Below are positions 1,781 through 63,975 of a DNA stretch of 64,000 bases, in pieces. The notes below the pieces were generated by a model. That model was not told the DNA's origin. It did no database searches and saw only the letters and a list, made by a program, of their open reading frames with translations. The stretch's first letter is position 1; each line of letters starts with the position of its first letter. The stretch lies in the NCBI RefSeq assembly GCF_988242995.1, contig NZ_OZ547043.1, one strand, 5' to 3'. A program made the translations under genes and the position numbers.

Positions 1781-3580
<1,800 letters not shown>

Positions 3581-4257: not shown

Positions 4258-5210
4258 TGCGCTGCCCCGAACTTAATATTCTCGGCAATGCGTTTCGCCG
4301 TTTGCGGCGGCAGTTCACCGACAATGGTGATTTCGGCGTTATCACGTACGCTTGTACTGACGGTTCTGCGCCCGGTGCGCAACATCTGATCGGTGCTCGA
4401 TGGCGTAGCGCGGTTAACGTTTACCGAGAAGCTGAATAATCCGTCGGAATAGAGACGTGATTCGATAGGCATGTTGTCCATCGTCGGTAGCGGACGTCGA
4501 CTACTGGAAACTTCGCTAAAACCCTGTGGCAACCAGGTTGGCGTCCAGCTGAATTTAGCTTTTTCACCTACAGGAACAGAAAGCAACGGCGGCAAATTTG
4601 CCTTCGCCAGCGTCTGCATACTGCTGCTGATATCCTGATTGACATTAAAAGCAATCACGCGAAATTGTTCCAGCGTTTCACCATCGCGATCAAGGAGATC
4701 AACCCGCATCGGTAATTTCGATTCGGTGTCCATCCACACGATGTAGCTGTAGCGTGTACCATCTCGGGCAACCACACGAATGACTTCGCAAAGACGATCA
4801 GCAATACGCGTGCGCCCGACGGAGATAAAGTCGTAGTAAGGAGAAAGGCGTTTGAAATCGGTATAGATGAGCGATGGTAGAGAATCAACAATGTAATCGC
4901 CATTAAGCGTGAACGGTTCAAGTCCCGGTTCAAAATAGCTGATTTCATTGCCGCGCTGTACCACTTCCCGGCGCGGGCCATCCATTTGCAACAATTGTGC
5001 AAGAGGACGGTTATCGAGGCGTGCATGTCGATAACGCAGAGACTCAACACCCTGTTTATTGATGCTGATGAATGACAGCTCGTAATTCAGTGACTGACTG
5101 GCCAGGTTCATCTGCTGTAATAACGCCCCGGACGCGGGAGTGGCCGAGGCGTTAGCAGAGAATAACAGGCTACCTGTCACTAATGACATGGCAAACCAAA
5201 GTTGCTTCAT
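4254..5210 (-). CDS. rseB: Sigma-E regulatory protein RseB (periplasmic)
   Basis: 318-aa ORF with signal peptide, located between rseA and rseC. Confidence 0.9.
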   Translation of the reverse strand: MKQLWFAMSLVTGSLLFSANASATPASGALLQQMNLASQSLNYELSFISINKQGVESLRYRHARLDNRPLAQLLQMDGPRREVVQRGNEISYFEPGLEPFTLNGDYIVDSLPSLIYTDFKRLSPYYDFISVGRTRIADRLCEVIRVVARDGTRYSYIVWMDTESKLPMRVDLLDRDGETLEQFRVIAFNVNQDISSSMQTLAKANLPPLLSVPVGEKAKFSWTPTWLPQGFSEVSSSRRPLPTMDNMPIESRLYSDGLFSFSVNVNRATPSSTDQMLRTGRRTVSTSVRDNAEITIVGELPPQTAKRIAENIKFGAAQ

Positions 5211-6568: not shown

Positions 6569-6866
6569 GTAAAGTTCCGTAACGCATCTGTTTTTGTTTG
6601 TCATGCTGTAGACGGATCATTATCTATCATTATAAGTCTACAGAATCTGAACATCGCATTATCTGTGTAGAAATGCCCATTTAACTGCCTGAAGAGTAAC
6701 CCAACGGCCTTTTTATTTCACCACCTAATCCTCCACCAGCCAGTAACTTCTCTTTTTCTCGCCGCCCTGCGTCAACGTGTTTAGCAACTGTAACAAATAT
6801 TAAAATAGCAGGTGTTTATCCGCACAACATGATGCTATGCTGACCAAACCATGTTTAGTAAATTAA

Positions 6867-9220
<2,354 letters not shown>

Positions 9221-9351: not shown

Positions 9352-10686
9352 ATGACTGTAACGACTTTTTCCGAACTTGAACTCGACGAAAGCCTGCTGG
9401 AAGCCCTCCAGGATAAAGGTTTCACTCGCCCGACCGCCATTCAGGCTGCCGCCATTCCGCCTGCGCTCGATGGCCGTGATGTACTCGGTTCTGCGCCGAC
9501 AGGCACCGGTAAAACGGCGGCGTATCTGCTGCCAGCGTTGCAGCACCTGCTCGATTTCCCACGTAAGAAATCCGGTCCGCCGCGTATTTTGATCCTCACC
9601 CCAACTCGCGAGCTGGCGATGCAGGTGGCCGATCATGCCCGCGAACTGGCGAAACATACGCATCTGGATATCGCCACCATCACCGGCGGCGTAGCCTATA
9701 TGAACCACGCGGAAGTGTTCAGCGAAAATCAGGACATCGTGGTCGCCACGACCGGACGTTTGCTGCAATACATAAAAGAAGAGAACTTCGATTGCCGCGC
9801 GGTTGAAACGCTGATCCTCGACGAAGCAGACCGTATGCTGGATATGGGCTTCGCTCAGGATATCGAACATATTGCTGGCGAAACGCGCTGGCGTAAACAG
9901 ACCCTGCTCTTTTCCGCAACGCTGGAAGGCGATGCGATTCAGGACTTTGCCGAGCGTCTGCTGGAAGATCCGGTGGAAGTTTCTGCGAATCCCTCCACCC
10001 GTGAGCGCAAAAAAATTCATCAGTGGTATTACCGCGCCGATGACCTGGAACATAAAACCGCGTTGCTGGTGCACCTGTTAAAACAGCCGGAAGCGACTCG
10101 CTCAATCGTATTTGTGCGTAAGCGTGAGCGTGTACATGAGCTGGCAAACTGGCTGCGCGAAGCGGGCATCAACAACTGCTATCTCGAAGGTGAGATGGTA
10201 CAGGGCAAGCGTAACGAAGCGATCAAGCGTTTGACCGAAGGTCGCGTAAACGTACTGGTTGCCACCGATGTTGCCGCGCGCGGTATCGACATTCCTGACG
10301 TCAGCCACGTCTTTAACTTCGATATGCCGCGCAGTGGCGATACTTATTTGCACCGTATCGGACGTACCGCGCGCGCCGGTCGTAAAGGCACCGCAATTTC
10401 GCTGGTAGAAGCCCATGACCATCTGCTGCTGGGCAAAGTTGGTCGCTATATTGAAGAGCCAATTAAAGCTCGTGTAATTGATGAGTTACGCCCGAAAACG
10501 CGTGCGCCAAGCGAGAAGCAAACCGGCAAGCCATCGAAGAAAGTACTGGCAAAACGCGCCGAGAAGAAAAAAGCTAAAGAGAAAGAGAAGCCGCGGGTGA
10601 AAAAACGCCATCGCGACACCAAAAATATTGGTAAGCGCCGTAAACCGAGCGGAACGGGCGTGCCACCGCAAACGACAGAAGAGTAA
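9352..10686 (+). CDS. srmB: DEAD-box ATP-dependent RNA helicase SrmB
   Basis: 444-aa ORF with Walker A (APTGTGKT), DEAD box (LDEADRM), SAT and HRIGRTAR motifs. Confidence 0.93.
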
Positions 10687-52006: not shown

Positions 52007-52369
52007 GGGGCTGATTCTGGATTCGACGGGATTTGCGAAACCCAAGGTGCATGCCGAGGGGCGGTTGGCCTCGTAAAAAGCCGCAAAAAATAGTCGCAAA
52101 CGACGAAAACTACGCTTTAGCAGCTTAATAACCTGCTTAGAGCCCTCTCTCCCTAGCCTCCGCTCTTAGGACGGGGATCAAGAGAGGTCAAACCCAAAAG
52201 AGATCGCGTGGAAGCCCTGCCTGGGGTTGAAGCGTTAAAACTTAATCAGGCTAGTTTGTTAGTGGCGTGTCCGTCCGCAGCTGGCAAGCGAATGTAAAGA
52301 CTGACTAAGCATGTAGTACCGAGGATGTAGGAATTTCGGACGCGGGTTCAACTCCCGCCAGCTCCACCA
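52007..52369 (+). ncRNA. ssrA: tmRNA (SsrA / 10Sa RNA)
   Basis: 363 nt from GGGGCTGATTCTGGATTCGACGGG to ...CCCGCCAGCTCCACCA; contains the tag reading frame region; tRNA-like 3' end. Confidence 0.96.
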
Positions 52370-52483
52370 CTTGCTCTTCCGGATACGTCCGGAGAAATCC
52401 TGAAAGCCCGCATGGCGCAAGCCCTGTGGGCTTTTTTGTGTCTACCGTTGTCCGAGGATATCCAGCTGAGTCCAGTGATTATT

Positions 52484-52531
52484 GGTATACGTTTAGGTAT
52501 ACGGTAAGATGTATACCTAAATGCGTATACC
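52484..52531. promoter_or_regulatory. Repeat cluster at the int 5' end (GTATAC-containing repeats with an 11-bp inverted repeat); candidate Int arm-type sites or int operator
   Basis: TTTAGGTATAC-N8-GTATACCTAAA perfect inverted repeat (about 52492-52521) abutting the ATG at 52521, plus two more GGTATAC/CGTATACC copies. Confidence 0.45.
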
Positions 52532-53753
52532 AATTCATGAAGGAACGGCCAAAGTGGCAAGAACGACACGTCCCCTGACCAACACTGAAGTTCTGCGCGC
52601 TAAAGCGTTAGAAAAGGATCTAACGTTGCATGATGGCGATGGCCTTTTTCTGCTCGTTAAAACGAACGGTAAGAAATTATGGCGTTTCCGCTACCAAAAG
52701 CCAGTAACAAAACAGCGGACCATGATTAGTTTAGGAACCTTCCCTGCACTATCCTTGGCTGAAATCAGAAATGTGCGAGCTAAGTATCTTTCCTTGTTAG
52801 CCAAGGGGATCGATCCACAAACACACAATGAACAAGTCACACAACAACAACAAATTGCAGTAGAAAGTATTTTTTCAAACGTTGCTAAAAATTGGTTTGC
52901 CATTAAACGCAATAGCGTTACACCTGATTATGCAAAGGATATATGGCGATCCTTAGAGAAGGACATTTTCCCTGCTATCGGAGAGATTCCTGTTCAGGAA
53001 ATAAAAGCACGTATATTAATTGAAGCCCTAGAACCAATTAAGGCCCGCGGTGCACTCGAGACTGTTCGTCGTTTGGTGCAACGTATTAACGAAATTATGA
53101 TCTACGCTGTCAATACCGGATTAATTGAGGCTAATCCTGCGTCAGGTATTGGCATGGCTTTTGATAAACCCAAAAAGCAAAATTTGCCAACGCTGCGGCC
53201 AGAAGAATTACCTAAACTGATGCATTCTCTAGTAATGTCAAACCTGTCTATTCCTACTCGTTGTCTGATCGAATGGCAACTACTGACACTCGTTCGCCCT
53301 TCAGAAGCCTCTGGCGCCCGCTGGGATGAGATCGATTTAGAATCCAAACTTTGGAGAATTCCTGCTGAAAGGATGAAAGCAAAGCGCGAACATATAGTTC
53401 CTTTATCATCTCAAGCTTTAATTATTCTTGAAGTAATGAAACCCATAAGTGCTCATCGTGAACATATATTTCCTAGCAGGAATAACCCTCAAGAACCGAT
53501 GAATAGCCAAACAGCAAATGCAGCATTAAAACGCATAGGGTACGGAGGAAAGTTAGTTGCACATGGACTCCGTTCTATTGCCAGCACTGCATTAAATGAA
53601 GCCGAATTTAATTCTGACATTATTGAATCAGCTCTTGCACATGTTGATAAAAATGAGGTGAGAAGAGCATATAACCGCTCCACTTATCTTGATAAACGTA
53701 AAGAGATGATGGCTTGGTGGGGAAATTTTATATATAAAAATAATTCATTATAA
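52521..53753 (+). CDS. int: Tyrosine recombinase (phage integrase, P4/CP4-57 family)
   Basis: 410-aa ORF with C-terminal catalytic region (HGLRSIAST...LAHVD...RRAYNRSTYLDKR); real start may be the downstream GTG (about 52551, reading VARTTRPLT). Confidence 0.88.
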   Translation: MRIPIHEGTAKVARTTRPLTNTEVLRAKALEKDLTLHDGDGLFLLVKTNGKKLWRFRYQKPVTKQRTMISLGTFPALSLAEIRNVRAKYLSLLAKGIDPQTHNEQVTQQQQIAVESIFSNVAKNWFAIKRNSVTPDYAKDIWRSLEKDIFPAIGEIPVQEIKARILIEALEPIKARGALETVRRLVQRINEIMIYAVNTGLIEANPASGIGMAFDKPKKQNLPTLRPEELPKLMHSLVMSNLSIPTRCLIEWQLLTLVRPSEASGARWDEIDLESKLWRIPAERMKAKREHIVPLSSQALIILEVMKPISAHREHIFPSRNNPQEPMNSQTANAALKRIGYGGKLVAHGLRSIASTALNEAEFNSDIIESALAHVDKNEVRRAYNRSTYLDKRKEMMAWWGNFIYKNNSL

Positions 53754-53764
53754 AAGGTATTACA

Positions 53765-54799
53765 ATGAATATTGATTCTATAAAACTTCATTTACAAAAT
53801 TTTTTCACAAATAATCCAACTGTTCTTATCGGTTCTGGCCTCTCTCTCGGTGAGGGGATTCCAGGTATGAAAACATTGGGAGAACATCTTAATACAACTA
53901 TCCCCAAATTAGTAAGCGGGGATCTTATAAGAGAATGGGGTATCATAAGTTCCAAACTAAATAATGGTATGGGACTTGAAGATGCCATGGCATTTCTTAA
54001 AGATGAAAGTGAACTTATCCCATTAATTATTCAGCACACCGCAGATCTTATTTTAAAGCATGAAAATACTGTAATATGCTCTGTAATCAATGGAGAAAAA
54101 AATCTAGCATTTACATCTTTATTGAATCACTTAACTTTTAATCAAAATGAATTGATAATTATAACTCCAAACTATGATAGACTAATTGAAATAGCATGTG
54201 AAATTGCTGGTCTAGAAATTTCAACAGGATTTATCAATAGTTATCATTGTATAAATAATCCTGAAGTTGAGTTAGATAAATTCAAAATCACCCACTCTAT
54301 CAAAACCACACGAGGTAAATCTACAGTTCAAATTAGAACTAAAAAACACGTTAAAATATTTAAACCTCATGGTAGTCTTGATTGGTTCAAGGCTGACGAT
54401 AAAATTATCAGGACCAGCTTTCAAAATAAACATAAAAGATTAATTATTACACCAGGTACAAGTAAATTCAGAGCTGGATATCAGCAGCCTTTTGATTGGC
54501 ATAGAGAAAAAGCAAACCATTATATCAAAAGAGCAAAATCACTATTAATTATTGGCTATGGGTTTAATGATGAGCAGTTAGAAGTACATTTGAAATCAAA
54601 AATACGTGAAAAAATACCTGTTTTATTAATGACATATGAATTGACATCAAACGCTCAAAAAATATGTGATGATAATCCTTCTATAACATATGTTATTGCA
54701 GAAGGAAACAATTCCATCGTTTGTATCGATGGCATTAAATATAAAATCGAAAAGAATATTTGGTCTTTAAATGAGTTTGTTAAAGAGGTACTTAAATAA
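53765..54799 (+). CDS. SIR2-like NAD+-binding protein (predicted NADase effector); cargo gene 1
   Basis: 344-aa ORF. Gly-rich NAD-binding loop VLIGSGLSLGEG, TPNYD motif (catalytic Asn codon 54170-54172), KPHGS motif (His codon 54367-54369) and second Rossmann motif IIGYGFND. Low GC; stop overlaps next gene's start (TAATG). Confidence 0.8.
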   Translation: MNIDSIKLHLQNFFTNNPTVLIGSGLSLGEGIPGMKTLGEHLNTTIPKLVSGDLIREWGIISSKLNNGMGLEDAMAFLKDESELIPLIIQHTADLILKHENTVICSVINGEKNLAFTSLLNHLTFNQNELIIITPNYDRLIEIACEIAGLEISTGFINSYHCINNPEVELDKFKITHSIKTTRGKSTVQIRTKKHVKIFKPHGSLDWFKADDKIIRTSFQNKHKRLIITPGTSKFRAGYQQPFDWHREKANHYIKRAKSLLIIGYGFNDEQLEVHLKSKIREKIPVLLMTYELTSNAQKICDDNPSITYVIAEGNNSIVCIDGIKYKIEKNIWSLNEFVKEVLK

Positions 54800-56583
54800 T
54801 GGAATATTACGTCATTAACACTGATGAAACATGCTTTATCGGACGAATCGCAAATGTTGATACCGATCGTGCTATTATCATTTCAGAGTCTCCAGAGATC
54901 ATACAAGAACTAACCGTTTTTGACTTGGTTGCTATTGAAGGCAATACCCCCACAGAGTTTCTTGTTGGTATCATTGAAAAAGTAAAACGCTCTATTGGAG
55001 AAATACAAACTATTGATACTGAAGAAAATATTGAAGATGACAGTGAAAAAGATTTCGATAATATCTTCCAAACTTATTCTATCGATCATGATATTCTTCA
55101 AGTAGCTCTTATCGGCACTTTCTGGGAGGTTTACGGGGATAGAAGGAAAATTTTTAAAAGAGGAGCACAATATTTTCCAAAAGTTGAAAAACAAGCATTT
55201 CTTATAAAAAAAGACAGTCTTGAGAAATTAATGTCGGCAGTCGACAATGATACTCCTGATGAGCTAAAACTCATACTAGGCAACTATGGAAATACCAATT
55301 CACGAGCAGTTGCAAATGGGGATAAATTATTTCAGAGACATGCTGCCCTATTGGGGAGTACTGGTTCAGGTAAAAGTTGGACAGTTGCGTCATTACTAGA
55401 ACAAGCCTCAAAATTAAAATACAACAATATTGTACTTTATGATCTTCATGGTGAATACAAAACTTTATCTGATACACATAATAAATCGAACCGCCCGAGC
55501 ATAGCCGATTATTTTAAAATTGCAAGCCCAGGAAATATCGACGATGTAAATAGTATTTATGTACCTCATTGGTTATTAAACAAAGAAGAAATGCTATCAC
55601 TGTTGTTAGATAGAAGCGATAGCAATGCACCTAATCAGGCAGCAAGATTTAGCTACCACGTGAGAGAGCTAAAAAAAGAATACATCACACACAACAGATT
55701 AATACACTTAGAAGATTGTTTGACTGTTGATGCTCCAATACCCTACTCTATCGAGGATCTTATTAGCAGACTGCACGATGATGATCAAGGTATGAAAAAA
55801 GGTACTAATAATAAAGAAATAAAAGGTGATTGGAATGGAAAACTAACAAGATTCATAAGCAGGTTAAGAACAAAAGTAGACGACAAGAGGAACTGTTTTC
55901 TATTCTCAAATAAACCAGAACACAACCAATATGATTGGTTGGAGAAATACGCTTGTAAAATTTTAAAATCAGATAGCACAGATCATGGCATTAAAATAAT
56001 TGATTTTTCTGAAGTTCCTTCAGATATTATGCCTATTGTTATTGGTGTATTGACCAGATTTTTATACAACGTCCAATTTTGGAGATGTGAGACCGAACGA
56101 ACCCCTATAGCATTCGTTTGTGACGAAGCTCATATTTATTTACCCGCTAAGGATACCACTGAGGCTGAAACAAAAATATCCTTATCAATATTCGAGAAAA
56201 TTGCTAAAGAAGGCAGAAAGTACGGAGTATCTTTATTAGTCGTCAGCCAAAGACCTTCTGATGTTAGCAGAACAATACTAAGTCAATGTAATAACATAAT
56301 TTCTCTCAGACTAAGTAATTATAGAGATCAACAGGTAGTTAGTCGGTTAATGCCTGATTCATTGAGTTCATTAACATCCATACTACCAATTCTTGATACT
56401 GGGGAAGCAATAGTTCTTGGCGACTCTGTTCTATTACCAGCTAGAATAAAATTGAATCCACCAACACTCAAGCCCGATAGCGCAACCAGAGCTTTTTGGA
56501 ATGAGTGGGGGGCAATTGAAGCAAAAGAAATCTCTATAGCAAATGCTGTTGAATCACTCAGGAGACAATCTCGTAATCGCTAA
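54799..56583 (+). CDS. HerA/FtsK-type ATPase; cargo gene 2
   Basis: 594-aa ORF. Walker A GSTGSGKS (Lys codon 55372-55374), Walker B FVCDEAH (56122-56133), and KEGRKYGVSLLVVSQRP arginine-finger region typical of HerA. Translationally coupled to the SIR2-like gene. Confidence 0.8.
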   Translation: MEYYVINTDETCFIGRIANVDTDRAIIISESPEIIQELTVFDLVAIEGNTPTEFLVGIIEKVKRSIGEIQTIDTEENIEDDSEKDFDNIFQTYSIDHDILQVALIGTFWEVYGDRRKIFKRGAQYFPKVEKQAFLIKKDSLEKLMSAVDNDTPDELKLILGNYGNTNSRAVANGDKLFQRHAALLGSTGSGKSWTVASLLEQASKLKYNNIVLYDLHGEYKTLSDTHNKSNRPSIADYFKIASPGNIDDVNSIYVPHWLLNKEEMLSLLLDRSDSNAPNQAARFSYHVRELKKEYITHNRLIHLEDCLTVDAPIPYSIEDLISRLHDDDQGMKKGTNNKEIKGDWNGKLTRFISRLRTKVDDKRNCFLFSNKPEHNQYDWLEKYACKILKSDSTDHGIKIIDFSEVPSDIMPIVIGVLTRFLYNVQFWRCETERTPIAFVCDEAHIYLPAKDTTEAETKISLSIFEKIAKEGRKYGVSLLVVSQRPSDVSRTILSQCNNIISLRLSNYRDQQVVSRLMPDSLSSLTSILPILDTGEAIVLGDSVLLPARIKLNPPTLKPDSATRAFWNEWGAIEAKEISIANAVESLRRQSRNR

Positions 56584-56627: not shown

Positions 56628-56791
56628 CGCCCGCTTTGCGGGGCGGTTTCAGTGCAGTTGCACTGACACGCTCAGGCCGCGCCGGGAATGGCGCGGTCTG
56701 CAGAAAATGAGGCAGGAAAACGCATGCAAAGCCATGCACCTTATCGATGCATGGCTTTTTTCAGTAAAAACGGGCGGATTTTCGGGGAATT

Positions 56792-57364
56792 TTACACAGA
56801 CTGATGTGATGCCAGTTGCGCACTTTTACGCGAAAAAATCATGTTCTGCGCAGGAGTGAATTTTTCACGGCTGTCATCCACCGAAGCCGCGTCAGGCCTG
56901 AATCCGATGGTCGTTAAAATGTCGCTATCCTGTGCGGAATAATTAATTTTTTCACCCTTCGCAAGCCAGGACTGGAGGGCTTCACGCAGGGCATCTGTGG
57001 CACGCTGTATGGCACAGTTTCGGGCAATGGCCGTCAGCTCACTGTAGCCCATCAGCTCCGGTGCCAGTGCCGCCGCCAGTGCTGTGCCGTGCTGCTGCAT
57101 AAAATCATTCAGCCGGTCGCGGATGCTGATGTGCTGAACGGCTTCATGCGAACGAATATAACGACCGGCGGCCTGATTCACCTGCCATTTTCTGACTTCG
57201 ATAATATTGCGTAATTCGTCCAGGCGACTGACGTTTCTGCCTTCTCCTGACAGAAGCCGCAGGTATTCCTGTTCGGCCGCTGCCAGCTCATTTTTGCGTT
57301 GCAGCCATGCTGCTTTGTTATTCTGACAGGTGTCAAAGGCCTGCTGTAAGGCTGTGCTTTCCAT
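56792..57364 (-). CDS. psu: P4 Psu-like protein (polarity suppression / capsid decoration)
   Basis: 190-aa ORF, the same length as P4 Psu, in the conserved psu-delta-sid order next to cos. Confidence 0.75.
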   Translation of the reverse strand: MESTALQQAFDTCQNNKAAWLQRKNELAAAEQEYLRLLSGEGRNVSRLDELRNIIEVRKWQVNQAAGRYIRSHEAVQHISIRDRLNDFMQQHGTALAAALAPELMGYSELTAIARNCAIQRATDALREALQSWLAKGEKINYSAQDSDILTTIGFRPDAASVDDSREKFTPAQNMIFSRKSAQLASHQSV

Positions 57365-57437
57365 CGTTATCTCTTTCTCATCATGCTGAAGAATAAAAAT
57401 ACGGTGTGCGGCGACGGCCGGTGTTAACCGGCAGCCC

Positions 57438-57938
57438 TCATTCCAGACGCAGCGAATATGATTGTGTTTTTAACCGTACTGGCGGCAGTTCCTGTTTTTC
57501 ATGCAGGCGTTCTGCCAGTTCGTCCGGCGTGACCGGGCGGACAATGAAACGGTTGATGGTCTGAAGCGTTTTAAACACCAGACCACAGCCCGGATCCGTG
57601 CACACATAAAAACGCTCGGTGACTTCCTGAGACAGACGCCGCGATGTTCTTGACAGTGCAAGGCCTTTACATCTCCGACAACAATATCCGGTAACAAGCA
57701 TTCTTTTCGGCCGTTTCATACTGCCGGAGGCTGACGTCAGTGAATCGCGGTATCTCTGTTTGCCTGAAATGTATTCCATTCCTGAATCTTTACAGTCAGA
57801 GAAAAAGCTTTCACTCGCTTCAAATGTCGCAGAGCAATAAATATTCCGGCACTGTGCAATCATTATCTTGGTGCCATCGTCCATGAAATGTGCGCGACGG
57901 GTGTGAGCAACATGTCCACACGACGGGCAGTAAATCAT
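57438..57938 (-). CDS. delta: P4 Delta-like late-gene activator (tandem Ogr-type zinc fingers)
   Basis: 166-aa ORF with two C-x2-C...C-x4-C zinc-finger units (MIYCPSCGHVAH...CRNIYC and YCCRRCKG...CTDPGC). Confidence 0.85.
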   Translation of the reverse strand: MIYCPSCGHVAHTRRAHFMDDGTKIMIAQCRNIYCSATFEASESFFSDCKDSGMEYISGKQRYRDSLTSASGSMKRPKRMLVTGYCCRRCKGLALSRTSRRLSQEVTERFYVCTDPGCGLVFKTLQTINRFIVRPVTPDELAERLHEKQELPPVRLKTQSYSLRLE

Positions 57939-58669
57939 GACAGCAGCCCTCTGGCCTTAAGCTCTGCTCCCTGCTGGTCTATTTTGTCCTGCCACACCTT
58001 GCGCTGTGCCGGTGTGCCTGCCACCTCATAATCCATGTGCGGGAGTGTTGCCGCTGACAGTCCGGCCAGCCGGAGAACCGGCTCGCCGGTGAGGCTGATT
58101 TGCATCTGTTTTATTTTCTGTTCCAGCGATGATTTCACCTGCTGCATGACAGCCTTTTCCGGCGCGACGTAGCCCTGATGGCCGGTGGTGTTGGCGAGCG
58201 GATTTTCCTGTACCAGGATGCTCAGATGCATTGCCCGGACAAGCGCCTCACAGGTTTCATTCAGGGCGTGTTCCAGCTCATGCTCTGCATACAGACTCAG
58301 CAGGTGATGATGTGCCTTCCGGTAGGCGGTGGCCGTGCTGTCACACGCCCCTTTCAGGCGTTCACATTCAAAATTCAGCACCACGGCCAGATTGTCATAT
58401 TCCTGTACCAGCTCCCGGCGTGCCACGCGCTCAATGTGGCGCTGTTTCAGCTCATCGCTCAGGACACCACCGGCTGCACGAAAGGCCGTGCGCCAGTCGT
58501 CAGCGTCGTTTCCGTCGGCCTGCGTCAGCGCATTTTTTTCCTGCTCTGCCCGTTCAATGGCCGTGATGGTCTCATCCATCAGGCGGGCGTTCTCAAGATG
58601 AGCGGCTCTGGCCTTTTCCAGTTGTGCCAGCGCGGGTTGCAGATATTCAGGGATGGTGTTGTCAGACAT
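57935..58669 (-). CDS. sid: P4 Sid-like external scaffold (capsid size determination) protein
   Basis: ORF track gives 266 aa; start trimmed to MSDNTIPEYLQPALAQLEK (244 aa, the P4 Sid length) with RBS; coiled-coil-rich. Confidence 0.75.
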   Translation of the reverse strand: MSDNTIPEYLQPALAQLEKARAAHLENARLMDETITAIERAEQEKNALTQADGNDADDWRTAFRAAGGVLSDELKQRHIERVARRELVQEYDNLAVVLNFECERLKGACDSTATAYRKAHHHLLSLYAEHELEHALNETCEALVRAMHLSILVQENPLANTTGHQGYVAPEKAVMQQVKSSLEQKIKQMQISLTGEPVLRLAGLSAATLPHMDYEVAGTPAQRKVWQDKIDQQGAELKARGLLS

Positions 58670-58703
58670 TTTCCGGCTCCTCGTCACTTCAGGTTGAGAA
58701 AAT

Positions 58704-58759
58704 TGTGACGTACACCGGACAACAACACGACGCATTGCAGATGTGCCAGCCCTGACACA
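58704..58759. promoter_or_regulatory. Two TGT-N12-ACA dyads; candidate Delta/Ogr activator sites for the divergent late promoters (Psid / PLL)
   Basis: TGTgacgtacaccggACA (58704-58721) and TGTgccagccctgacACA (58742-58759) match the P2/P4 late-promoter activator element TGT-N12-ACA. Confidence 0.55.
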
Positions 58760-58838
58760 GGAGACTCATCCTCAGACCGGCAAGCCAGGAAAAGGTCGCA
58801 GGAAAAACCGGCTTACTGTTTGTTTTTTTATATTTTAC

Positions 58839-58942
58839 TGTTCACCTCTGTTCACCTTAAGAAAAAAGATAAGTAATACAGTAAGTTAAAGGATGAACAA
58901 TCGCAGTAATGACTGTTCACCGTCTGTTCACCACTGTTCACC
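58839..58942. repeat. Candidate P4-type replication origin (ori) iteron cluster
   Basis: Five direct copies of TGTTCACC (58839, 58849, 58914, 58925, 58935) plus a degenerate inverted copy; about 4.8 kb from the crr repeats, as in P4. Confidence 0.7.
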
Positions 58943-59221
58943 CGCTCATGGACTTTTTGTGCTGTTTACTACTGTTTGTTTTTATTAATTCGCCGGGAAT
59001 GAATAAGAAGAAACGATTTGTATTTCACTATAAAAATTACGAATTGCTTTAAGTGGCTTTAAATGACTTTAAGTGGAGATGAACAAAAAATACACAAGCA
59101 TTGTAAGGCTGCCGGAACAAATCCCCCCTGTTGCGTCTGCCGAAAATATTCACAAAATAAAGCGCTACCCGAAGCCGGACGGACTTATCCGGTGCTGTAT
59201 GGACATTAACGAGGTAGCCCG

Positions 59222-59488
59222 ATGCAATCTGTTTTTTCTTCCCCGTCTCCCGCCCCAGTGACGCCACTGATGCCGCTGCCGGACATCACGCAGGAGCGTT
59301 TTTTACGTCTGCCGGAAGTGATGCACCTGTGCGGCCTGTCACGCTCGACCATCTATGAACTTATCCGTAAGGGGGAATTTCCGCCGCAGGTGAGTCTTGG
59401 CGGTAAAAATGTGGCCTGGCTGCACTCTGAAGTCACCGCATGGATGGCCGGGCGCATTGCCGGACGCAAACGGGGGTACGACGCATGA
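59222..59488 (+). CDS. vis: AlpA/Vis-family helix-turn-helix regulator
   Basis: 88-aa ORF with AlpA-type HTH ([27 protein letters not shown]), the length of P4 Vis. Confidence 0.75.
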
Positions 59489-60084
59489 TGATGCCCGCTC
59501 TGCAAAAAGTCCCTTTTTCTGGCTTGCCTTTTTCCGGCATTTGCGGATATAGTTTTTCCGCTGCCGCAAAATCGGCAGCCGGGCGTGGAAACCCGAGTAT
59601 GTTATCGGCGACATATGACGCGCCATGCGTCTTTTTTTGTGTCGCAATCAACGCCACAGAGCGCCAGATTATGGTGTGGTGTGTGGTCAGTCGAGCAAAT
59701 GGCACTCCGTGCATTCTGCCCGCGTCCGCTCATTATACCGCAGAGTCAATGGTAGCTCAGGCGGGGCAGCCTCCGCGCTGGCCGGTTTCCGATAACGCCG
59801 GTATTTCCACCCCCGTCTGGGCTATCGCCATCGAGCGTGGAAACTCCGGCGATAGCGTCATTTACGCTGTTATCGGAGGTTGCCTTATGGCTACGACCCT
59901 TATCCCCTCACACCCTGAATTTGTCTTTGTGTTTGCGGCTGTCCGTCGCGCAGACCGTCATCCCCGTATCTGTATGCTTCGCACCGTCGCCGGTGATGAA
60001 CGCAGCGCCCGCCGTTCCCTTGTCCGTGACTATGTGCTCTCCCTTGCTGCCCGTCTGCCGGTGGTGGAGGTGTCCCGTGCGTAA
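59485..60084 (+). CDS. Hypothetical protein, P4 orf199-like (coding status uncertain)
   Basis: 214-aa ORF trimmed to an internal Met to give 199 aa; Ala/Pro-rich and GC-rich, so it could instead overlie the RNA-based immunity locus. Confidence 0.35.
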
Positions 60085-60364
60085 TAAAAAAGCCCCTCAG
60101 ACCGTCTCAGCACGTCATGACGCCCGTGAACACCTCAGCATTGAGGCTTACCATAAGCTCAACCGCGCCAGCGCCGTATCCCAGTTTGTTGGGGGTGATT
60201 TGATTCACCGTGAACTCTCCGGCCTGCATCAGCTCTACATTCCGCATATTTTCAGCTACCTGAATGAAGATATTGATTTTGTGCTGAATGAGCTGAAAGC
60301 CAAAGGCCTGTGCCGCGATTTTCTCGCCCAGCAGAAAGACCGGGGAGACAGGACGCATGTTTGA
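60077..60364 (+). CDS. Hypothetical protein, P4 epsilon-like (possible helper-prophage derepressor)
   Basis: About 95 codons from a putative GTG start within ORF 59837-60364 ([25 protein letters not shown]...); size and position match P4 epsilon. Assignment is by analogy only. Confidence 0.4.
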
Positions 60365-60812
60365 TTTTCCCCAGCCCGGTGAGATTTACCGTTCTGCCGG
60401 TTTTCCCGATGTGGCCGTGGTCGGCATTCTGGAAGACGGTATTCCGTGGGAAATGCCGTACCGCTGCCCGGACATTGTCTGGAACCCGTACCGCCGTAAA
60501 TTCAGTATCCTTGTGCGTATCCTCGCTGACGGGCGCACCACAGACATCCCGCTGGGGCGTTTTCTGCGGGAATTTACCTGTGACCGTCCTGACCTGTTTA
60601 AACGCAGCCCCGTAAACCGGCATGCGGTACTGAAAGAAATGGCCGGAGACCCGGAATTACAGAAATGGCGGGAGAAATATCTGGATATTTACCCGCAGGA
60701 CCCTGTTCCGGTCAGCCGGGCGGCACCGGTGGCGCGGGAATGGCGGGAAATTCCCCGCACGGAGCCTGACCCGGAAACCACCCCGGATAACAGTTACCGC
60801 AATTATCTGTAA
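60357..60812 (+). CDS. Hypothetical protein, P4 orf151-like
   Basis: 151-aa ORF whose start overlaps the previous ORF's stop; position upstream of alpha as in P4. Confidence 0.6.
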   Translation: MFDFPQPGEIYRSAGFPDVAVVGILEDGIPWEMPYRCPDIVWNPYRRKFSILVRILADGRTTDIPLGRFLREFTCDRPDLFKRSPVNRHAVLKEMAGDPELQKWREKYLDIYPQDPVPVSRAAPVAREWREIPRTEPDPETTPDNSYRNYL

Positions 60813-60947
60813 TTAAAAAACGACACCCGAAAAATTAAATGTGCGTATTCGCGCAGGGATACGCACGTCTTCAGGAGACGCAGATATGCCTTATCAGTTA
60901 ATGCAACCGGCACGGAATGCAGTCATCTGTCACAGGGAGGAAAACAA

Positions 60948-61268
60948 ATGAAAACACCCTTACCGCCCGTCTTACGCGCTGCCCTTTACCGTCGCGCTGT
61001 CGCCTGTGCCTGGCTGACCGTGTGCGAACGTCAGCACCGCTACCCGCATCTCACCCTTGAGTCACTGGAGGCGGCCATCGCCGCTGAGCTGGAAGGCTTT
61101 TATCTGCGCCAGCACGGTGAGGAAAAAGGGCGTCAGATAGCCTGTGCCCTGCTGGAAGATTTAATGGAATCCGGCCCCCTGAAGGCCGCGCCGTCGCTGT
61201 CCTTTCTCGGGCTGGTTGTGATGGATGAACTCTGTGCCCGTCACATAAAAGCGCCGGTACTGCACTGA
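60948..61268 (+). CDS. Hypothetical protein, P4 orf106-like
   Basis: 106-aa ORF directly upstream of the alpha gene. Confidence 0.55.
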
Positions 61269-61282
61269 AGGAGAACAACACC

Positions 61283-63616
61283 ATGAAAATGAACGTAACC
61301 GCCACCGTCAGCCATGCGCTCGGCCACTGGCCGCGTATTCTCCCGGCGCTGGGGATTCAGGTGCTGAAGAACCATCATCAGCCCTGTCCGGTCTGTGGCG
61401 GGAGTGACCGCTTCCGTTTTGATGACAGGGAGGGGCGCGGCACCTGGTACTGCAATCAGTGTGGTGCCGGTGACGGCCTGAAACTGGTTGAAAAGGTGTT
61501 TGGTGTCTCCCCGTCCGACGCGGCCGCAAAGGTGGCTGCCGTGACCGGCAGTCTGCCCCCGGCTGACCCGGCAGTGACGGCTGCCGCCGTTGCTGAAACA
61601 GACGCTGCCCGGAAGAACGCCGCCGCACTGGTACAAACCCTGATGGCAAAAACCCGTCCCGGAACCGGTAACGCCTACCTGACCCGCAAGGGCTTTCCCG
61701 GCCGGGAATGCCGGATGCTGACCGGCACACACAGAGCCGGTGGCGTGAGCTGGCGCGCCGGTGACCTTGTGGTGCCACTGTATGACGACAGCGGCGAACT
61801 GGTTAACCTTCAGTTAATCAGTGCTGACGGCCGTAAGCGCACCCTGAAAGGCGGACAGGTCAGGGGCACCTGTCACACCCTTGAAGGACAGAATCAGGCC
61901 GGAAAACGTCTGTGGATAGCGGAGGGATACGCGACCGCACTTACCGTGCATCACCTGACCGGTGAAACGGTGATGGTGGCGCTTTCTTCCGTGAATCTCC
62001 TTTCTCTGGCCAGCCTTGCCCGGCAGAAGCATCCGGCCTGTCAGATTGTCCTTGCTGCTGACCGTGACCTCAGCGGTGACGGCCAGAAAAAAGCCGCCGC
62101 AGCCGCAGATGCGTGTGAAGGTGTTGTTGCCCTGCCGCCGGTCTTCGGTGACTGGAATGATGCCTTCACGCAGTACGGCGGGGAAGCCACCCGTAAGGCC
62201 ATTTATGATGCCATCCGGCCACCGGCTGAAAGCCCGTTCGACACCATGAGCGAAGCGGAGTTTTCCGCCATGAGTACCAGCGAAAAGGCCATGCGTATCT
62301 ATGAGCATTACGGCGAGGCGCTCGCGGTCGATGCCAACGGCCAGCTTCTGTCCCGCTATGAAAATGGTGTCTGGAAGGTGCTGCCGCCACAGGACTTTGC
62401 CCGGGATGTGGCCGGGCTGTTTCAGCGTCTGCGAGCGCCGTTCTCCTCCGGGAAGGTGGCCTCCGTGGTGGACACCCTGAAGCTGATTATTCCGCAGCAG
62501 GAAGCCCCCTCCCGCCGCCTGATTGGCTTTCGTAACGGCGTGCTCGACACGCAGAACGGCACGTTCCACCCGCACAGTCCGTCACACTGGATGCGCACCC
62601 TGTGCGATGTGGATTTCACCCCGCCGGTGGACGGTGAAACGCTGGAAACCCACGCCCCCGCCTTCTGGCGCTGGCTTGACCGTGCCGCCGGTGGCCGTGC
62701 GGAAAAACGCGACGTGATTCTGGCTGCACTGTTTATGGTGCTGGCAAACCGCTACGACTGGCAGCTCTTTCTGGAGGTGACCGGTCCCGGCGGCAGCGGC
62801 AAAAGTATCATGGCCGAAATCGCCACCCTGCTGGCCGGGGAGGATAACGCCACGTCGGCCACCATCGAGACGCTGGAATCCCCGCGTGAACGTGCCGCGT
62901 TAACTGGCTTCTCACTGATACGCCTGCCGGATCAGGAAAAATGGAGCGGCGACGGTGCCGGACTCAAGGCCATCACCGGCGGCGATGCGGTGTCCGTTGA
63001 CCCGAAATACCGGGATGCGTACTCCACGCACATCCCGGCGGTGATTCTGGCCGTGAACAATAACCCGATGCGCTTCACCGACCGCAGCGGCGGCGTGTCA
63101 CGCCGGCGGGTGATTATTCACTTCCCGGAACAGATAGCCCCGCAGGAGCGCGACCCGCAGCTTAAGGACAAAATCACCCGCGAGCTGGCGGTCATCGTGC
63201 GTCACCTGATGCAGAAGTTCAGCGACCCGATGCTCGCCCGGTCACTGCTTCAGTCCCAGCAGAACTCAGACGAGGCACTGAACATCAAACGGGATGCCGA
63301 CCCGACGTTTGATTTTATCGGCTATCTGGAAACCCTGCCGCAGACCAGCGGCATGTATATGGGGAACGCCAGTATCATCCCGCGTAATTACCGTAAATAC
63401 CTCTATCACGCCTATCTGGCCTACATGGAGGCAAACGGCTACCGGAATGTACTCAGTCTGAAAATGTTCGGACTGGGGCTGCCGGTGATGCTGAAAGAAT
63501 ACGGGCTGAATTACGAGAAGCGCCATACCAAACAGGGGATACAGACCAACCTGACGCTGAAAGAAGAAAGCTACGGCGACTGGCTGCCAAAATGTGACGA
63601 CCCTGCAACAGCCTGA
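61283..63616 (+). CDS. alpha: P4 alpha-type replication protein (zinc-finger primase - TOPRIM - helicase - ori-binding)
   Basis: 777-aa ORF (P4 alpha length). N-terminal zinc finger CPVCGGSDRFRF...WYCNQCG, TOPRIM-like acidic patch (AADRD), helicase Walker A (TGPGGSGKS). Confidence 0.88.
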   Translation: MKMNVTATVSHALGHWPRILPALGIQVLKNHHQPCPVCGGSDRFRFDDREGRGTWYCNQCGAGDGLKLVEKVFGVSPSDAAAKVAAVTGSLPPADPAVTAAAVAETDAARKNAAALVQTLMAKTRPGTGNAYLTRKGFPGRECRMLTGTHRAGGVSWRAGDLVVPLYDDSGELVNLQLISADGRKRTLKGGQVRGTCHTLEGQNQAGKRLWIAEGYATALTVHHLTGETVMVALSSVNLLSLASLARQKHPACQIVLAADRDLSGDGQKKAAAAADACEGVVALPPVFGDWNDAFTQYGGEATRKAIYDAIRPPAESPFDTMSEAEFSAMSTSEKAMRIYEHYGEALAVDANGQLLSRYENGVWKVLPPQDFARDVAGLFQRLRAPFSSGKVASVVDTLKLIIPQQEAPSRRLIGFRNGVLDTQNGTFHPHSPSHWMRTLCDVDFTPPVDGETLETHAPAFWRWLDRAAGGRAEKRDVILAALFMVLANRYDWQLFLEVTGPGGSGKSIMAEIATLLAGEDNATSATIETLESPRERAALTGFSLIRLPDQEKWSGDGAGLKAITGGDAVSVDPKYRDAYSTHIPAVILAVNNNPMRFTDRSGGVSRRRVIIHFPEQIAPQERDPQLKDKITRELAVIVRHLMQKFSDPMLARSLLQSQQNSDEALNIKRDADPTFDFIGYLETLPQTSGMYMGNASIIPRNYRKYLYHAYLAYMEANGYRNVLSLKMFGLGLPVMLKEYGLNYEKRHTKQGIQTNLTLKEESYGDWLPKCDDPATA

Positions 63617-63649
63617 CCCACCTGACCGGCATCTGCCGGTCTTTTTTTA

Positions 63650-63975
63650 TCCCTGAATCCCCCGAAGGTGAACAATCCAGTGTTCACCCTTCACCGTATA
63701 TTCACCCGTTATCACACTGAAATTAAAAGAGAAAAACGAAAGGTGAACAGTGTGAACAATCAAATCAAAAAAAACTTTTTTTCTTCCTGTGTGATTTTCA
63801 GCACGGGAAATTAATCCCCTGCACAAGTCACACCGGCAGAATGCCGGAGGTGAAGAATCGAATGTTCACCCTTCACCCATTATTCACCACCTATCACTCT
63901 GAAATAAAAGGAGAAAACAGAAAGGTGAACAGTGTGAACAGTTCTTTCGAAAAAAAATTTTTTTCCTGTACGATA
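63650..63975. repeat. crr-like cis replication region: two direct repeats of about 130 bp, period about 185 bp, each carrying TGTTCACC/GGTGAACA iterons
   Basis: Repeat 1 (about 63660-63790) and repeat 2 (about 63845-63970) align nearly base for base (ggtgaacaatccagtgttcaccc... versus ggtgaagaatcgaatgttcaccc...); located just 3' of alpha. Confidence 0.75.

What the first reader, a model, noticed from the sequence alone, without database searches (positions are those of the whole stretch)
58670..58830. Paired TGT-N12-ACA dyads in the divergent sid / vis control region
Two exact TGT-N12-ACA elements (58704-58721 and 58742-58759) lie in the intergenic region between the leftward sid operon and the rightward vis-alpha operon. 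This is the element bound by Ogr/Delta-type activators at P2/P4 late promoters, and the satellite encodes its own Delta. The arrangement suggests helper- and self-activated divergent late promoters.
Basis: partly seen in the sequence, partly recalled or inferred. Interest (0 to 1): 0.4.

Follow-up and report, generated by a model that had tools for sequence, protein, structure and literature searches.

The report
Known P4 sid late-promoter activator sites
The two TGT-N12-ACA dyads are real, but they lie in a stretch that matches the classic satellite phage P4 at all but one base, and both belong to its long-studied sid late promoter rather than to a pair of divergent promoters, so this is textbook biology.

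Summary
Observation confirmed. Exact TGT-N12-ACA elements lie at 58704-58721 and 58742-58759.

**What the region is.** Window 56628-63963 is a P4 prophage core, 97.9% identical to NC_001609. Both dyads are base-for-base identical to P4 9531-9548 and 9493-9510.

**Why they are not chance.** The bare pattern is weak: 20 hits in the window against about 15 expected. The local cluster is not: 3 exact sites in the 552-bp sid-vis spacer (Poisson P about 0.0003-0.002).

**Distal dyad.** It is conserved in P4-like elements of five other genera. The half-sites TGTG.CA/TG.CACA are invariant, the centre varies, and the spacing is fixed.

**Geometry.** It assigns both dyads to the leftward sid promoter:
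- the conserved -10 hexamer CA(C/G)AAT is at 58707-58702;
- the predicted start is about 58695;
- the distal dyad centre is at -55.5, the same register as the annotated P2 PO activator site;
- the proximal dyad centre is at -17.5 and overlaps the -10.

**The rightward promoter.** The vis promoter (PLL) is about 470 bp away, beyond the replication origin and the Cox boxes.

The motif and the activator family are right. The "one dyad per divergent promoter" reading is not.

**One small extra.** The exact proximal dyad occurs only in the P4 lineage, which has the two-finger 166-aa Delta. Relatives with an 81-aa Delta have TGT-N12-AGA at that position.

Already known; low interest.

The parts
58742..58759 (-). 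Distal Delta/Ogr dyad of the sid late promoter (sid-sense TGTGTCAGGGCTGGCACA). Its centre is about -55.5 from the predicted start, and it is inferred to be the activating site.
   Evidence: Exact match. Identical to P4 9493-9510. Same register as the annotated P2 PO activator site, and the same left half TGTGTCAG. 12 of 14 outer positions are invariant and 0 of 4 centre positions are, in 15 distinct loci from 6 genera.
58704..58721 (-). Proximal dyad (sid-sense TGTCCGGTGTACGTCACA). Its centre is about -17.5 and it overlaps the -10 hexamer. It is a secondary site, and its role is inferred to be modulatory.
   Evidence: Exact match. Identical to P4 9531-9548 and invariant in 6 close P4-lineage variants. 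In all 12 distinct relatives with an 81-aa Delta the same position reads TGT-N12-AGA.
58702..58707 (-). Candidate -10 hexamer of Psid: CACAAT, or CAGAAT in relatives.
   Evidence: 5 of 6 positions are invariant across 15 loci, and there are no indels between it and the sid ATG. No consensus -35/-10 promoter is found in the region.
58695..58695 (-). Predicted Psid transcription start, 7 nt after the -10, giving a 25-nt untranslated leader before the sid ATG.
   Evidence: Inference from the -10 position and from the -55 rule taken from the P2 annotation. Not measured here.
58719..58730 (-). Nearly invariant block TCGTGTTGTTGT at about -35 to -24 of Psid. Its last TGT is the upstream arm of the proximal dyad. 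Function unassigned.
   Evidence: 11 of 12 positions are invariant in 15 loci. A related invariant CTTGTTGC sits at the -35 region of PLL.
57935..58669 (-). sid, the capsid size-determination gene and first gene of the late operon.
57438..57938 (-). delta: a 166-aa activator with two Ogr_Delta zinc-finger stretches.
   Evidence: Pfam PF04606, 2 stretches, E 6.8e-22. P4 annotation.
56792..57364 (-). psu, the last gene of the sid-delta-psu operon.
   Evidence: Pfam PF07455, E 7e-89.
58839..58942 (.). P4 ori type-1 iterons (TGTTCACC, six copies). They separate Psid from PLL.
   Evidence: X51522 annotation transferred through a gap-free 98% alignment.
59047..59076 (-). Three 10-bp ori type-2 repeats. 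On the - strand they read TTAAAGTCA / TTAAAGCCA, which matches the P2 Cox-box consensus. They lie upstream of PLL.
   Evidence: Annotation, sequence, and the Cox-box consensus and its location upstream of PLL from PMC3936717.
59102..59119 (+). Third exact dyad (TGTAAGGCTGCCGGAACA), the candidate -55 site of the rightward late promoter PLL.
   Evidence: Exact in P4 too (9133-9150), with 3 substitutions, all inside the N12. In distant relatives only the TGT half is conserved.
59153..59158 (+). Candidate PLL -10 hexamer (CAAAAT) inside an AAAATATTCACAAAATA block that is nearly invariant across the loci. The predicted start is about 59165.
   Evidence: Inference only.
59222..59488 (+). vis (ORF88; AlpA-family helix-turn-helix protein, excisionase and regulator), the first gene after PLL.
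   Evidence: Pfam PF05930. P4 annotation.

Best explanation
The two dyads are the two Delta/Ogr recognition elements of the sid late promoter (Psid) of a P4 prophage.

- **Distal dyad (58742-58759).** It sits about 55 bp upstream of a start near 58695 on the - strand. It is the activating site. A zinc-finger activator binds it as a symmetric unit and recruits RNA polymerase through the alpha subunit to a promoter that has a usable -10 but no -35. The activator is either the helper's Ogr or the satellite's own Delta. The result is transcription of sid-delta-psu.
- **Positive feedback.** Because delta lies in that operon, helper Ogr can start the loop and Delta then reinforces it.
- **Proximal dyad (58704-58721).** It is centred at about -18 and overlaps the -10. 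It is a second, P4-lineage-specific match to the same recognition pattern. It most likely modulates the promoter, dampening or fine-tuning it at high Delta, rather than driving any other promoter.
- **Rightward late promoter (PLL, vis operon).** It is a separate unit about 470 bp away with its own dyad (59102-59119) and upstream Cox boxes.

Shown here: sequence identity to P4, the geometry, and the conservation. Inferred: the start sites, binding, and the role of the proximal site.
For: **Identity.** Window 56628-63963 equals P4 11624-4291 at 97.9% identity. The stretch 58670-58840 differs from P4 at one base, 58696, which is outside both dyads.

**Activator.** A two-finger Ogr_Delta protein is encoded in the operon.

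**Geometry.**
- The -10 hexamer CACAAT is at 58707-58702.
- The distal TGT and ACA arms fall at -64..-62 and -49..-47.
- This is the same register as the P2 PO site relative to its annotated start, and the left half TGTGTCAG is identical.

**Weak core promoter.** The scan finds no consensus sigma-70 promoter, as expected for an activator-dependent promoter.

**Conservation in 15 distinct loci** (E. coli, Citrobacter, Cedecea, Mangrovibacter, Enterobacter, Raoultella), which are about 70% identical to the window across the region:
- distal half-sites invariant at 12 of 14 positions, centre at 0 of 4, against a background of 125 of 220;
- no indels from the dyad to the ATG.

**Close variants.** Both dyads are intact in six P4-lineage variants. 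The only change is in the distal centre.

**Literature held.**
- Ogr binds conserved inverted repeats centred at about -55 and needs the RNA polymerase alpha subunit (PMC3152322).
- The consensus is TGT-N12-ACA, cited there to Christie & Calendar 1985 and Julien & Calendar 1995 (PMC3931495).
- The Cox site lies upstream of PLL (PMC3936717).

**From my own memory, not verifiable here.** Julien & Calendar 1995 footprinted Delta at about -55 in all six P2/P4 late promoters, plus a second site near -18 in P4 promoters.
Against: - No transcription start or binding data could be obtained here. The start at 58695 rests on a 4-of-6 -10 hexamer and on analogy with P2.
- The primary P4 papers are not in the library, so the '-18 second site' is recollection.
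- The proximal exact match is absent from all relatives with a single-finger Delta (ACA becomes AGA). An exact proximal site is therefore not needed for a working sid promoter.
- Part of the proximal dyad's conservation can be explained by the overlapping -10 and by the invariant TGTTGTTGT block.
- P2's own sites are imperfect: the PO site reads TGT-N12-CCA in the O direction and TGG-N12-ACA on the opposite (P) strand, and PV shows an N11 or N14 spacing. The six specified bases are thus neither necessary nor sufficient.
Confidence: 0.8

Rival explanations
1. Only the distal dyad is a functional activator site. The proximal exact TGT-N12-ACA is a by-product of two overlapping conserved elements (the TGTTGTTGT block and the -10 hexamer CACAAT) and has no regulatory role of its own.
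For: In the relatives only the outer bases that belong to the TGTTGTTGT block and to the -10 are conserved. The ACA arm is AGA in all 12 distinct loci with an 81-aa Delta, and the interior is free to vary. The half-sites match the distal consensus TGTG.CA/TG.CACA only at about 4-5 of 7 positions.
Against: It is an exact match 38 bp from a true site, and such a neighbour pair is expected 0.14 times per 64 kb. It is invariant in six P4-lineage variants, although that is weak evidence at 97-99% identity. I recall that Delta footprints a second site near -18, which I could not verify here.
Confidence: 0.15
2. One reading: the two dyads serve two divergent promoters, one driving sid leftward and the other driving the vis-alpha operon rightward, as a shared control region.
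For: P2 does use one activator site for the divergent PP and PO promoters. sid and vis are divergent.
Against: - sid and vis are 552 bp apart, with the replication origin between them.
- Starts 55 bp to the right of the dyads (58767 and 58805) have no -10-like hexamer and no gene.
- vis has its own exact dyad, conserved -10 block and upstream Cox boxes at 59047-59165.
- The predicted register puts both dyads in one promoter.
Confidence: 0.03
3. The dyads are chance matches, or operators of an unrelated host regulator such as a CRP-like or NadR-like protein, and have nothing to do with Ogr/Delta.
For: The six-base pattern is low in information: 20 window hits against about 15 expected. One hit, 6852-6869, fits the NadR box TGTTTA-N6-TAAACA next to nadB (the NadR consensus is from my own knowledge). 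The proximal dyad begins with a CRP-like half-site, TGTGA.
Against: Three sites in 552 bp has P of about 0.0003-0.002. The distal half-sites are invariant across six genera, always at a fixed distance from sid. The left half is identical to the annotated P2 PO activator site. The sequence is identical to P4, where Psid activation by Delta/Ogr is established.
Confidence: 0.02

Closest known systems
Bacteriophage P4 Psid late promoter (NC_001609 / X51522, dyads at 9493-9510 and 9531-9548, sid ATG at 9583)
   Same: This is essentially the same DNA. There is one substitution in 58670-58840, outside the dyads. The gene order (sid-delta-psu), the distance to sid, and the neighbouring ori, Cox boxes, PLL and vis are all the same.
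   Different: Nothing in the promoter differs. The element differs elsewhere. It sits at ssrA with a different integrase, and it carries a SIR2 + HerA pair where P4 has gop/beta/cII.
P2 late promoters PO/PP, PV and PF (Ogr-dependent; annotated activator sites and starts in NC_001895)
   Same: There is a dyad centred 55-58 bp upstream of the start, a weak core promoter, and activation by an Ogr/Delta zinc-finger protein. The PO site shares TGTGTCAG and the same register with the distal dyad.
   Different: P2 sites are single and imperfect (TGT-N12-CCA and similar). PP and PO share one site between divergent starts 111 bp apart. Psid has a second exact dyad at about -18 and does not share its sites with the divergent promoter.
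sid promoters of P4-like satellites with a single-finger (81-aa) Delta, in Citrobacter, Cedecea, Mangrovibacter, Enterobacter, Raoultella and some E. coli
   Same: They have the same layout and spacing, and the same distal dyad half-sites. They also share the -10 CA(C/G)AAT, the TGTTGTTGT block, the ori iterons and the vis leader.
   Different: The proximal position reads TGT-N12-AGA. Delta is 81 aa rather than 166 aa. The Cox-box array upstream of PLL is replaced by TTGCCA/GGCCA repeats. The PLL dyad keeps only its TGT half.

Membership tests
P2/P4 late promoter (Ogr/Delta-dependent) | Dyad-symmetric element of the TGT-N12-ACA type centred about 55 bp upstream of the transcription start | tested here: met
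   There is an exact dyad at 58742-58759. Relative to the start predicted from the conserved -10 (58695), its centre is at -55.5, the same register as the annotated P2 PO site and start. The start itself is inferred, not measured.
P2/P4 late promoter (Ogr/Delta-dependent) | Recognisable -10 but poor or absent -35, so the promoter depends on an activator | tested here: met
   The -10 is CACAAT. The -35 position reads TCGTGT, which matches TTGACA at 2 of 6. The scan found no consensus sigma-70 promoter in 58500-59400.
P2/P4 late promoter (Ogr/Delta-dependent) | A cognate Ogr/Delta zinc-finger activator is available, from the helper or from the element itself | tested here: met
   delta at 57438-57938 matches PF04606 in two stretches, E 6.8e-22. 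No helper prophage lies in the window.
P2/P4 late promoter (Ogr/Delta-dependent) | The promoter drives late (morphogenetic or helper-exploitation) genes | tested here: met
   sid-delta-psu lie immediately downstream on the - strand.
P2/P4 late promoter (Ogr/Delta-dependent) | Binding of Delta/Ogr to the dyad, and activator-dependent transcription in vivo | not testable with these tools
   This is established for P4 and P2 in the literature (primary papers not held). The window sequence is identical to P4 over the sites.
P2/P4 late promoter (Ogr/Delta-dependent) | The site is conserved in related elements at a fixed position | tested here: met
   For the distal dyad, 12 of 14 half-site positions are invariant across 15 loci from 6 genera, with no indels to the ATG. 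The proximal dyad is not conserved as an exact match.
Shared activator site for divergent late promoters (P2 PP/PO type) | One dyad lying about 55 bp from two opposite transcription starts, which are about 110 bp apart | tested here: not met
   In P2, the site at 3057-3087 serves starts at 3016 (-) and 3127 (+). Here sid and vis are 552 bp apart, the ori lies between them, and vis has its own dyad at 59102-59119.

The most novel reading that the evidence does not exclude
The exact proximal dyad at about -18 may be a P4-lineage innovation that arose together with the duplication that made Delta a covalent two-finger protein. Under this reading, one Delta unit could occupy both the -55 and -18 sites (38 bp centre to centre) and give P4 a self-limiting or differently tuned sid-delta-psu feedback loop that single-finger relatives lack. 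In this sample the exact ACA arm co-occurs perfectly with the 166-aa Delta (P4, the window, L007, and four close E. coli variants in which Delta length was not checked). AGA co-occurs with the 81-aa Delta in 12 distinct loci. However, the two-finger form is a single tight lineage, so this amounts to one evolutionary event.
Probability: 0.15. Interest if true: 0.3.

Novelty: already known. Interest (0 to 1): 0.08.

Why it matters
For genome annotation, it shows that this E. coli window carries an apparently intact P4-type satellite. Its late-gene switch (Psid, PLL, Delta, Vis, Cox boxes, ori) is unchanged from the laboratory P4, so it should respond to P2-like helpers in the same way. It adds nothing new about how late promoters work. 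The only modest extra is comparative. The -55 dyad is a deeply conserved feature of sid promoters across Enterobacterales satellites, whereas the second exact dyad is confined to the P4 lineage with the duplicated Delta.

Tried and rejected
**Literature.** I tried to obtain the primary P4 promoter papers, and none is held:
- Julien & Calendar 1995, by PMID and as PMC177091;
- Van Bokkelen 1991, PMC207153;
- Lindqvist 1993, PMC372931;
- two reviews, under PMC ids that I guessed.

Several full-text searches gave mostly noise. Mapped starts and footprints therefore could not be quoted.

**Simulation.** A Markov simulation of the whole window timed out. I replaced it with an analytic first-order Markov rate plus Poisson.

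**Promoter scan.** The sigma-70 consensus scan found nothing in 58500-59400. This fits activator dependence but does not locate the start.

**Rfam.** No family matches the sid-vis spacer. The only hits are isrK, c4-a1b1 and C4, downstream of vis. I therefore dropped an RNA-element reading of the dyads.

**Second PLL site.** I looked for one in the manner of Psid. The only candidate is a one-mismatch match at 59129-59146 (centre about -27), and about 3.7 such matches are expected in 700 bp. I make no claim for it.

**Independent two-finger Delta lineages.** I looked for these to test the link between Delta length and the proximal dyad. Only a tight cluster at 84% identity or more was found at the tool's sensitivity, so the test is not possible.

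**Hairpin or terminator reading of the distal dyad.** Rejected. There is no T-run, and the dyad lies upstream of the predicted start.

Full report

Yes. The pattern search finds exact TGT-N12-ACA at 58704-58721 (TGTGACGTACACCGGACA) and at 58742-58759 (TGTGCCAGCCCTGACACA). They lie between the sid start codon (58669, - strand) and vis (59222, + strand).

Taken alone the six-base pattern is weak. The window has 20 matches against 14.7 +/- 3.4 in dinucleotide shuffles, and 11 of 100 shuffles reach 20. One of the other hits, 6852-6869 next to nadB, fits the NadR box (my own knowledge) and has nothing to do with phages.

What is unusual is the clustering. The 552-bp sid-vis spacer holds three exact sites, the third at 59102-59119. 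Only 0.13-0.22 are expected, giving Poisson P(>=3) of 0.0003-0.0016. A neighbour pair no more than 40 bp apart is expected only 0.14 times per 64 kb.

**2. What is the region?**

Window 56628-63963 aligns in a single block to the complete P4 genome, coordinates 11624-4291 in reverse complement, at 97.9% identity. The P4 records give the features:

| Feature | Window coordinates | Strand |
|---|---|---|
| psu | 56792-57364 | - |
| delta | 57438-57938 | - |
| sid | 57935-58669 | - |
| ori type-1 iterons (TGTTCACC), six copies | 58839-58942 | |
| ori type-2 repeats, three copies | 59047-59076 | |
| vis/ORF88 | 59222-59488 | + |
| alpha | 61283-63616 | + |
| crr | from 63662 | |

Pfam confirms the following:
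- a two-finger Ogr_Delta protein;
- Psu;
- an AlpA-family Vis.

Rfam places the P4 immunity RNA (C4) and its targets downstream of vis. It finds nothing in the sid-vis spacer.

From the sid ATG to 58840 the window differs from P4 at one base, 58696. Both dyads are identical to P4 9531-9548 and 9493-9510.

The element is integrated at ssrA, with the tmRNA gene at 52007-52369. It carries its own integrase and a SIR2 + HerA pair where P4 has gop/beta/cII.

**3. Which promoter do the dyads belong to?**

Read in the sid sense, the sequence is ...TGTGTCAGGGCTGGCACA-TCTGCAATGCGTCGTGTTGT-TGTCCGGTGTACGTCACA-ATTTTCTCAACC...AGGAG...ATG.

- The only -10-like hexamer at a sensible distance from the ATG is CACAAT (58707-58702).
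- A start 7 nt after it is A at 58695, which leaves a 25-nt untranslated leader with a GAGGAG ribosome-binding site.
- With that start the distal dyad occupies -64 to -47 (centre -55.5).
- The proximal dyad occupies -26 to -9 (centre -17.5), overlapping the -10.

The P2 RefSeq record carries annotated starts and activator-binding sites:
- The PO/PP site, 3057-3087, lies 55 and 56 bp from the two divergent starts.
- The PV and PF sites lie 55-58 bp from theirs.

Laid out on the same scale, the PO element TGTGTCAGTGATAAGCCA occupies exactly -64 to -47. It shares its left half, TGTGTCAG, with the distal dyad of the window.

The consensus-promoter scan finds no sigma-70 promoter anywhere in 58500-59400. 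This is as expected for promoters that lack a -35 and depend on an activator.

A start 55 bp from the proximal dyad would fall either 12 nt inside sid or at 58767. A rightward start 55 bp from the distal dyad would be at 58805. Neither rightward position has a -10-like hexamer or a downstream gene.

Both dyads therefore belong to the leftward sid promoter.

**4. Where is the divergent promoter?**

The rightward late promoter, PLL, must lie between the Cox-binding region and vis. PMC3936717 states that P2 Cox binds upstream of P4 PLL and gives the cox-box consensus TTAAAG/CNCA. The three type-2 repeats at 59047-59076 read TTAAAGTCA and TTAAAGCCA on the - strand.

Just downstream is the third exact dyad, 59102-59119. 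After it comes a block, AAAATATTCACAAAATA, that is conserved in nearly all relatives. It contains a -10 candidate, CAAAAT (59153-59158), and the predicted start of about 59165 puts the dyad centre at -54.5.

Between the window and P4 this dyad has three substitutions, all inside the N12 and none in TGT or ACA.

Psid and PLL are thus two separate units about 470 bp apart with the replication origin between them. This is unlike the P2 PP/PO pair, which shares one site.

**5. Comparative test.**

The sample came from three sources:
- A scan of species-representative genomes with a Sid alignment. It returned 14 loci: Citrobacter, Cedecea, Mangrovibacter, Enterobacter, Raoultella, and one near-identical P4 copy.
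- Two diverged E. coli elements, from a search of complete E. coli genomes. That search found the region in 1031 of 5426 genomes.
- Four close E. coli variants.

Over the 220 nt upstream of sid, the diverged loci are about 70% identical to the window and 125 of 220 columns are invariant.

*Distal dyad.* All sequences keep TGTG(C/T)CA-N4-TG(C/G)CACA. Twelve of 14 half-site positions are invariant. None of the four centre positions is (GGGC, GAAC, GCAC, TTTT). There is not a single indel between the dyad and the ATG. This is the signature of a symmetric protein-binding site at a fixed promoter position.

*The -10.* It is CA(C/G)AAT everywhere.

*Proximal dyad.* It behaves differently.
- Its upstream TGT is part of a nearly invariant block, TCGTGTTGTTGT, at -35 to -24.
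- Its interior varies freely.
- Its downstream arm is ACA only in P4, the window, L007 and the four close variants.
- It is AGA in all 12 distinct loci whose Delta is the 81-aa single-finger form.

The two-finger 166-aa Delta was found only as one tight cluster, at 84% identity or more. The co-occurrence of the exact proximal dyad with the two-finger Delta is therefore a single evolutionary event, not a tested correlation.

*PLL dyad.* In the distant relatives it keeps only its TGT half, and the Cox-box array is replaced by TTGCCA/GGCCA repeats.

**6. How it most likely works.**

Established knowledge, from papers held here:
- Ogr-family zinc-finger activators bind conserved inverted repeats centred at about -55 of late promoters. 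[quoted passage not shown]
- The consensus is quoted as TGT-N12-ACA (PMC3931495).
- Delta is an Ogr homologue, and Delta and Ogr both promote expression of P2's and P4's late genes (PMC8628076).
- P2 Ogr trans-activates a resident P4, which leads to expression of delta, psu and sid (PMC7552001).

Applied here, the distal dyad is the activating site of Psid. Helper Ogr or the satellite's Delta switches on sid-delta-psu. Because delta is in the operon, the circuit is self-reinforcing.

The proximal dyad overlaps the core promoter. I infer that it is a secondary, modulatory site. I also recall, but could not verify because the paper is not held, that Julien & Calendar 1995 footprinted Delta at a second site near -18 in P4 late promoters. 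The relatives manage with AGA at that position, so an exact second site is not required for a functional sid promoter.

**7. Comparison with the known, and verdict.**

This is not merely like the P4 Psid promoter. It is that promoter, base for base.

- Novelty: already known.
- Interest: low.

The most novel reading still open is that the exact -18 site co-evolved with the duplicated Delta. It rests on one lineage and would need reporter and footprint experiments.

Noticed in passing
window 59102-59119: A third exact TGT-N12-ACA lies just upstream of vis, at about -55 from a conserved -10 block. Against P4 it has three substitutions, all inside the N12.
   Followed up: yes
window 58719-58730 (- strand) and 59128-59134 (+ strand): Nearly invariant blocks TCGTGTTGTTGT and CTTGTTGC sit at the -35 regions of Psid and PLL respectively, in 15 loci from 6 genera. 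They share TGTTG, which P2 late promoters lack. They may be an operator for a satellite regulator such as Vis, but this is unassigned.
   Followed up: partly
window 59047-59076; relatives L005, L006, L008-L020 at the equivalent position: The three ori type-2 repeats match the P2 Cox-box consensus on the - strand. In satellites with an 81-aa Delta this array is replaced by TTGCCA/GGCCA-type repeats. That would fit a different helper-encoded Cox-like derepressor.
   Followed up: partly
window 53765-56583: A SIR2-like protein (344 aa, PF13289) and a HerA-like ATPase (594 aa, PF01935/PF05872) lie between the integrase and cos, where P4 has gop/beta/cII. This looks like an anti-phage cargo pair in the satellite's variable hotspot. 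A sister element in strain FORC_042 carries IS1 and a KwaB-like gene there instead.
   Followed up: partly
window 52007-53753: The satellite is integrated next to the tmRNA gene ssrA (52007-52369) and has a 410-aa tyrosine integrase (52521-53753). P4 itself and the FORC_042 copy sit at a tRNA-Leu gene. The P4 core is thus combined with a different integration module.
   Followed up: partly
window 6778-7197, especially 6852-6869: Four TGT-N12-ACA hits fall within 420 bp at the rpoE-nadB spacer and the start of nadB. TGTTTAGTAAATTAAACA fits the NadR operator form TGTTTA-N6-TAAACA. This illustrates that the six-base pattern is not specific to Ogr/Delta.
   Followed up: partly
window 60808-60825 and 63593-63610: Two further exact pattern matches lie inside the satellite. 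One sits between ORF151 and ORF106 and is absent from P4. The other is in the 3' end of alpha and is present in P4 at 4642-4659. No promoter context is evident, so they are probably chance.
   Followed up: no
window 59547-59832: Rfam finds isrK (59560-59637), c4-a1b1 (59547-59599) and C4 antisense RNA (59745-59832). This is the P4 RNA-based immunity system, and it appears intact downstream of vis.
   Followed up: no
window 57438-57938; loci L008-L019: Delta is 166 aa with two zinc fingers only in the narrow P4 lineage. All diverged relatives sampled have an 81-aa single-finger Delta, and this co-occurs with AGA instead of ACA in the proximal dyad.
   Followed up: partly
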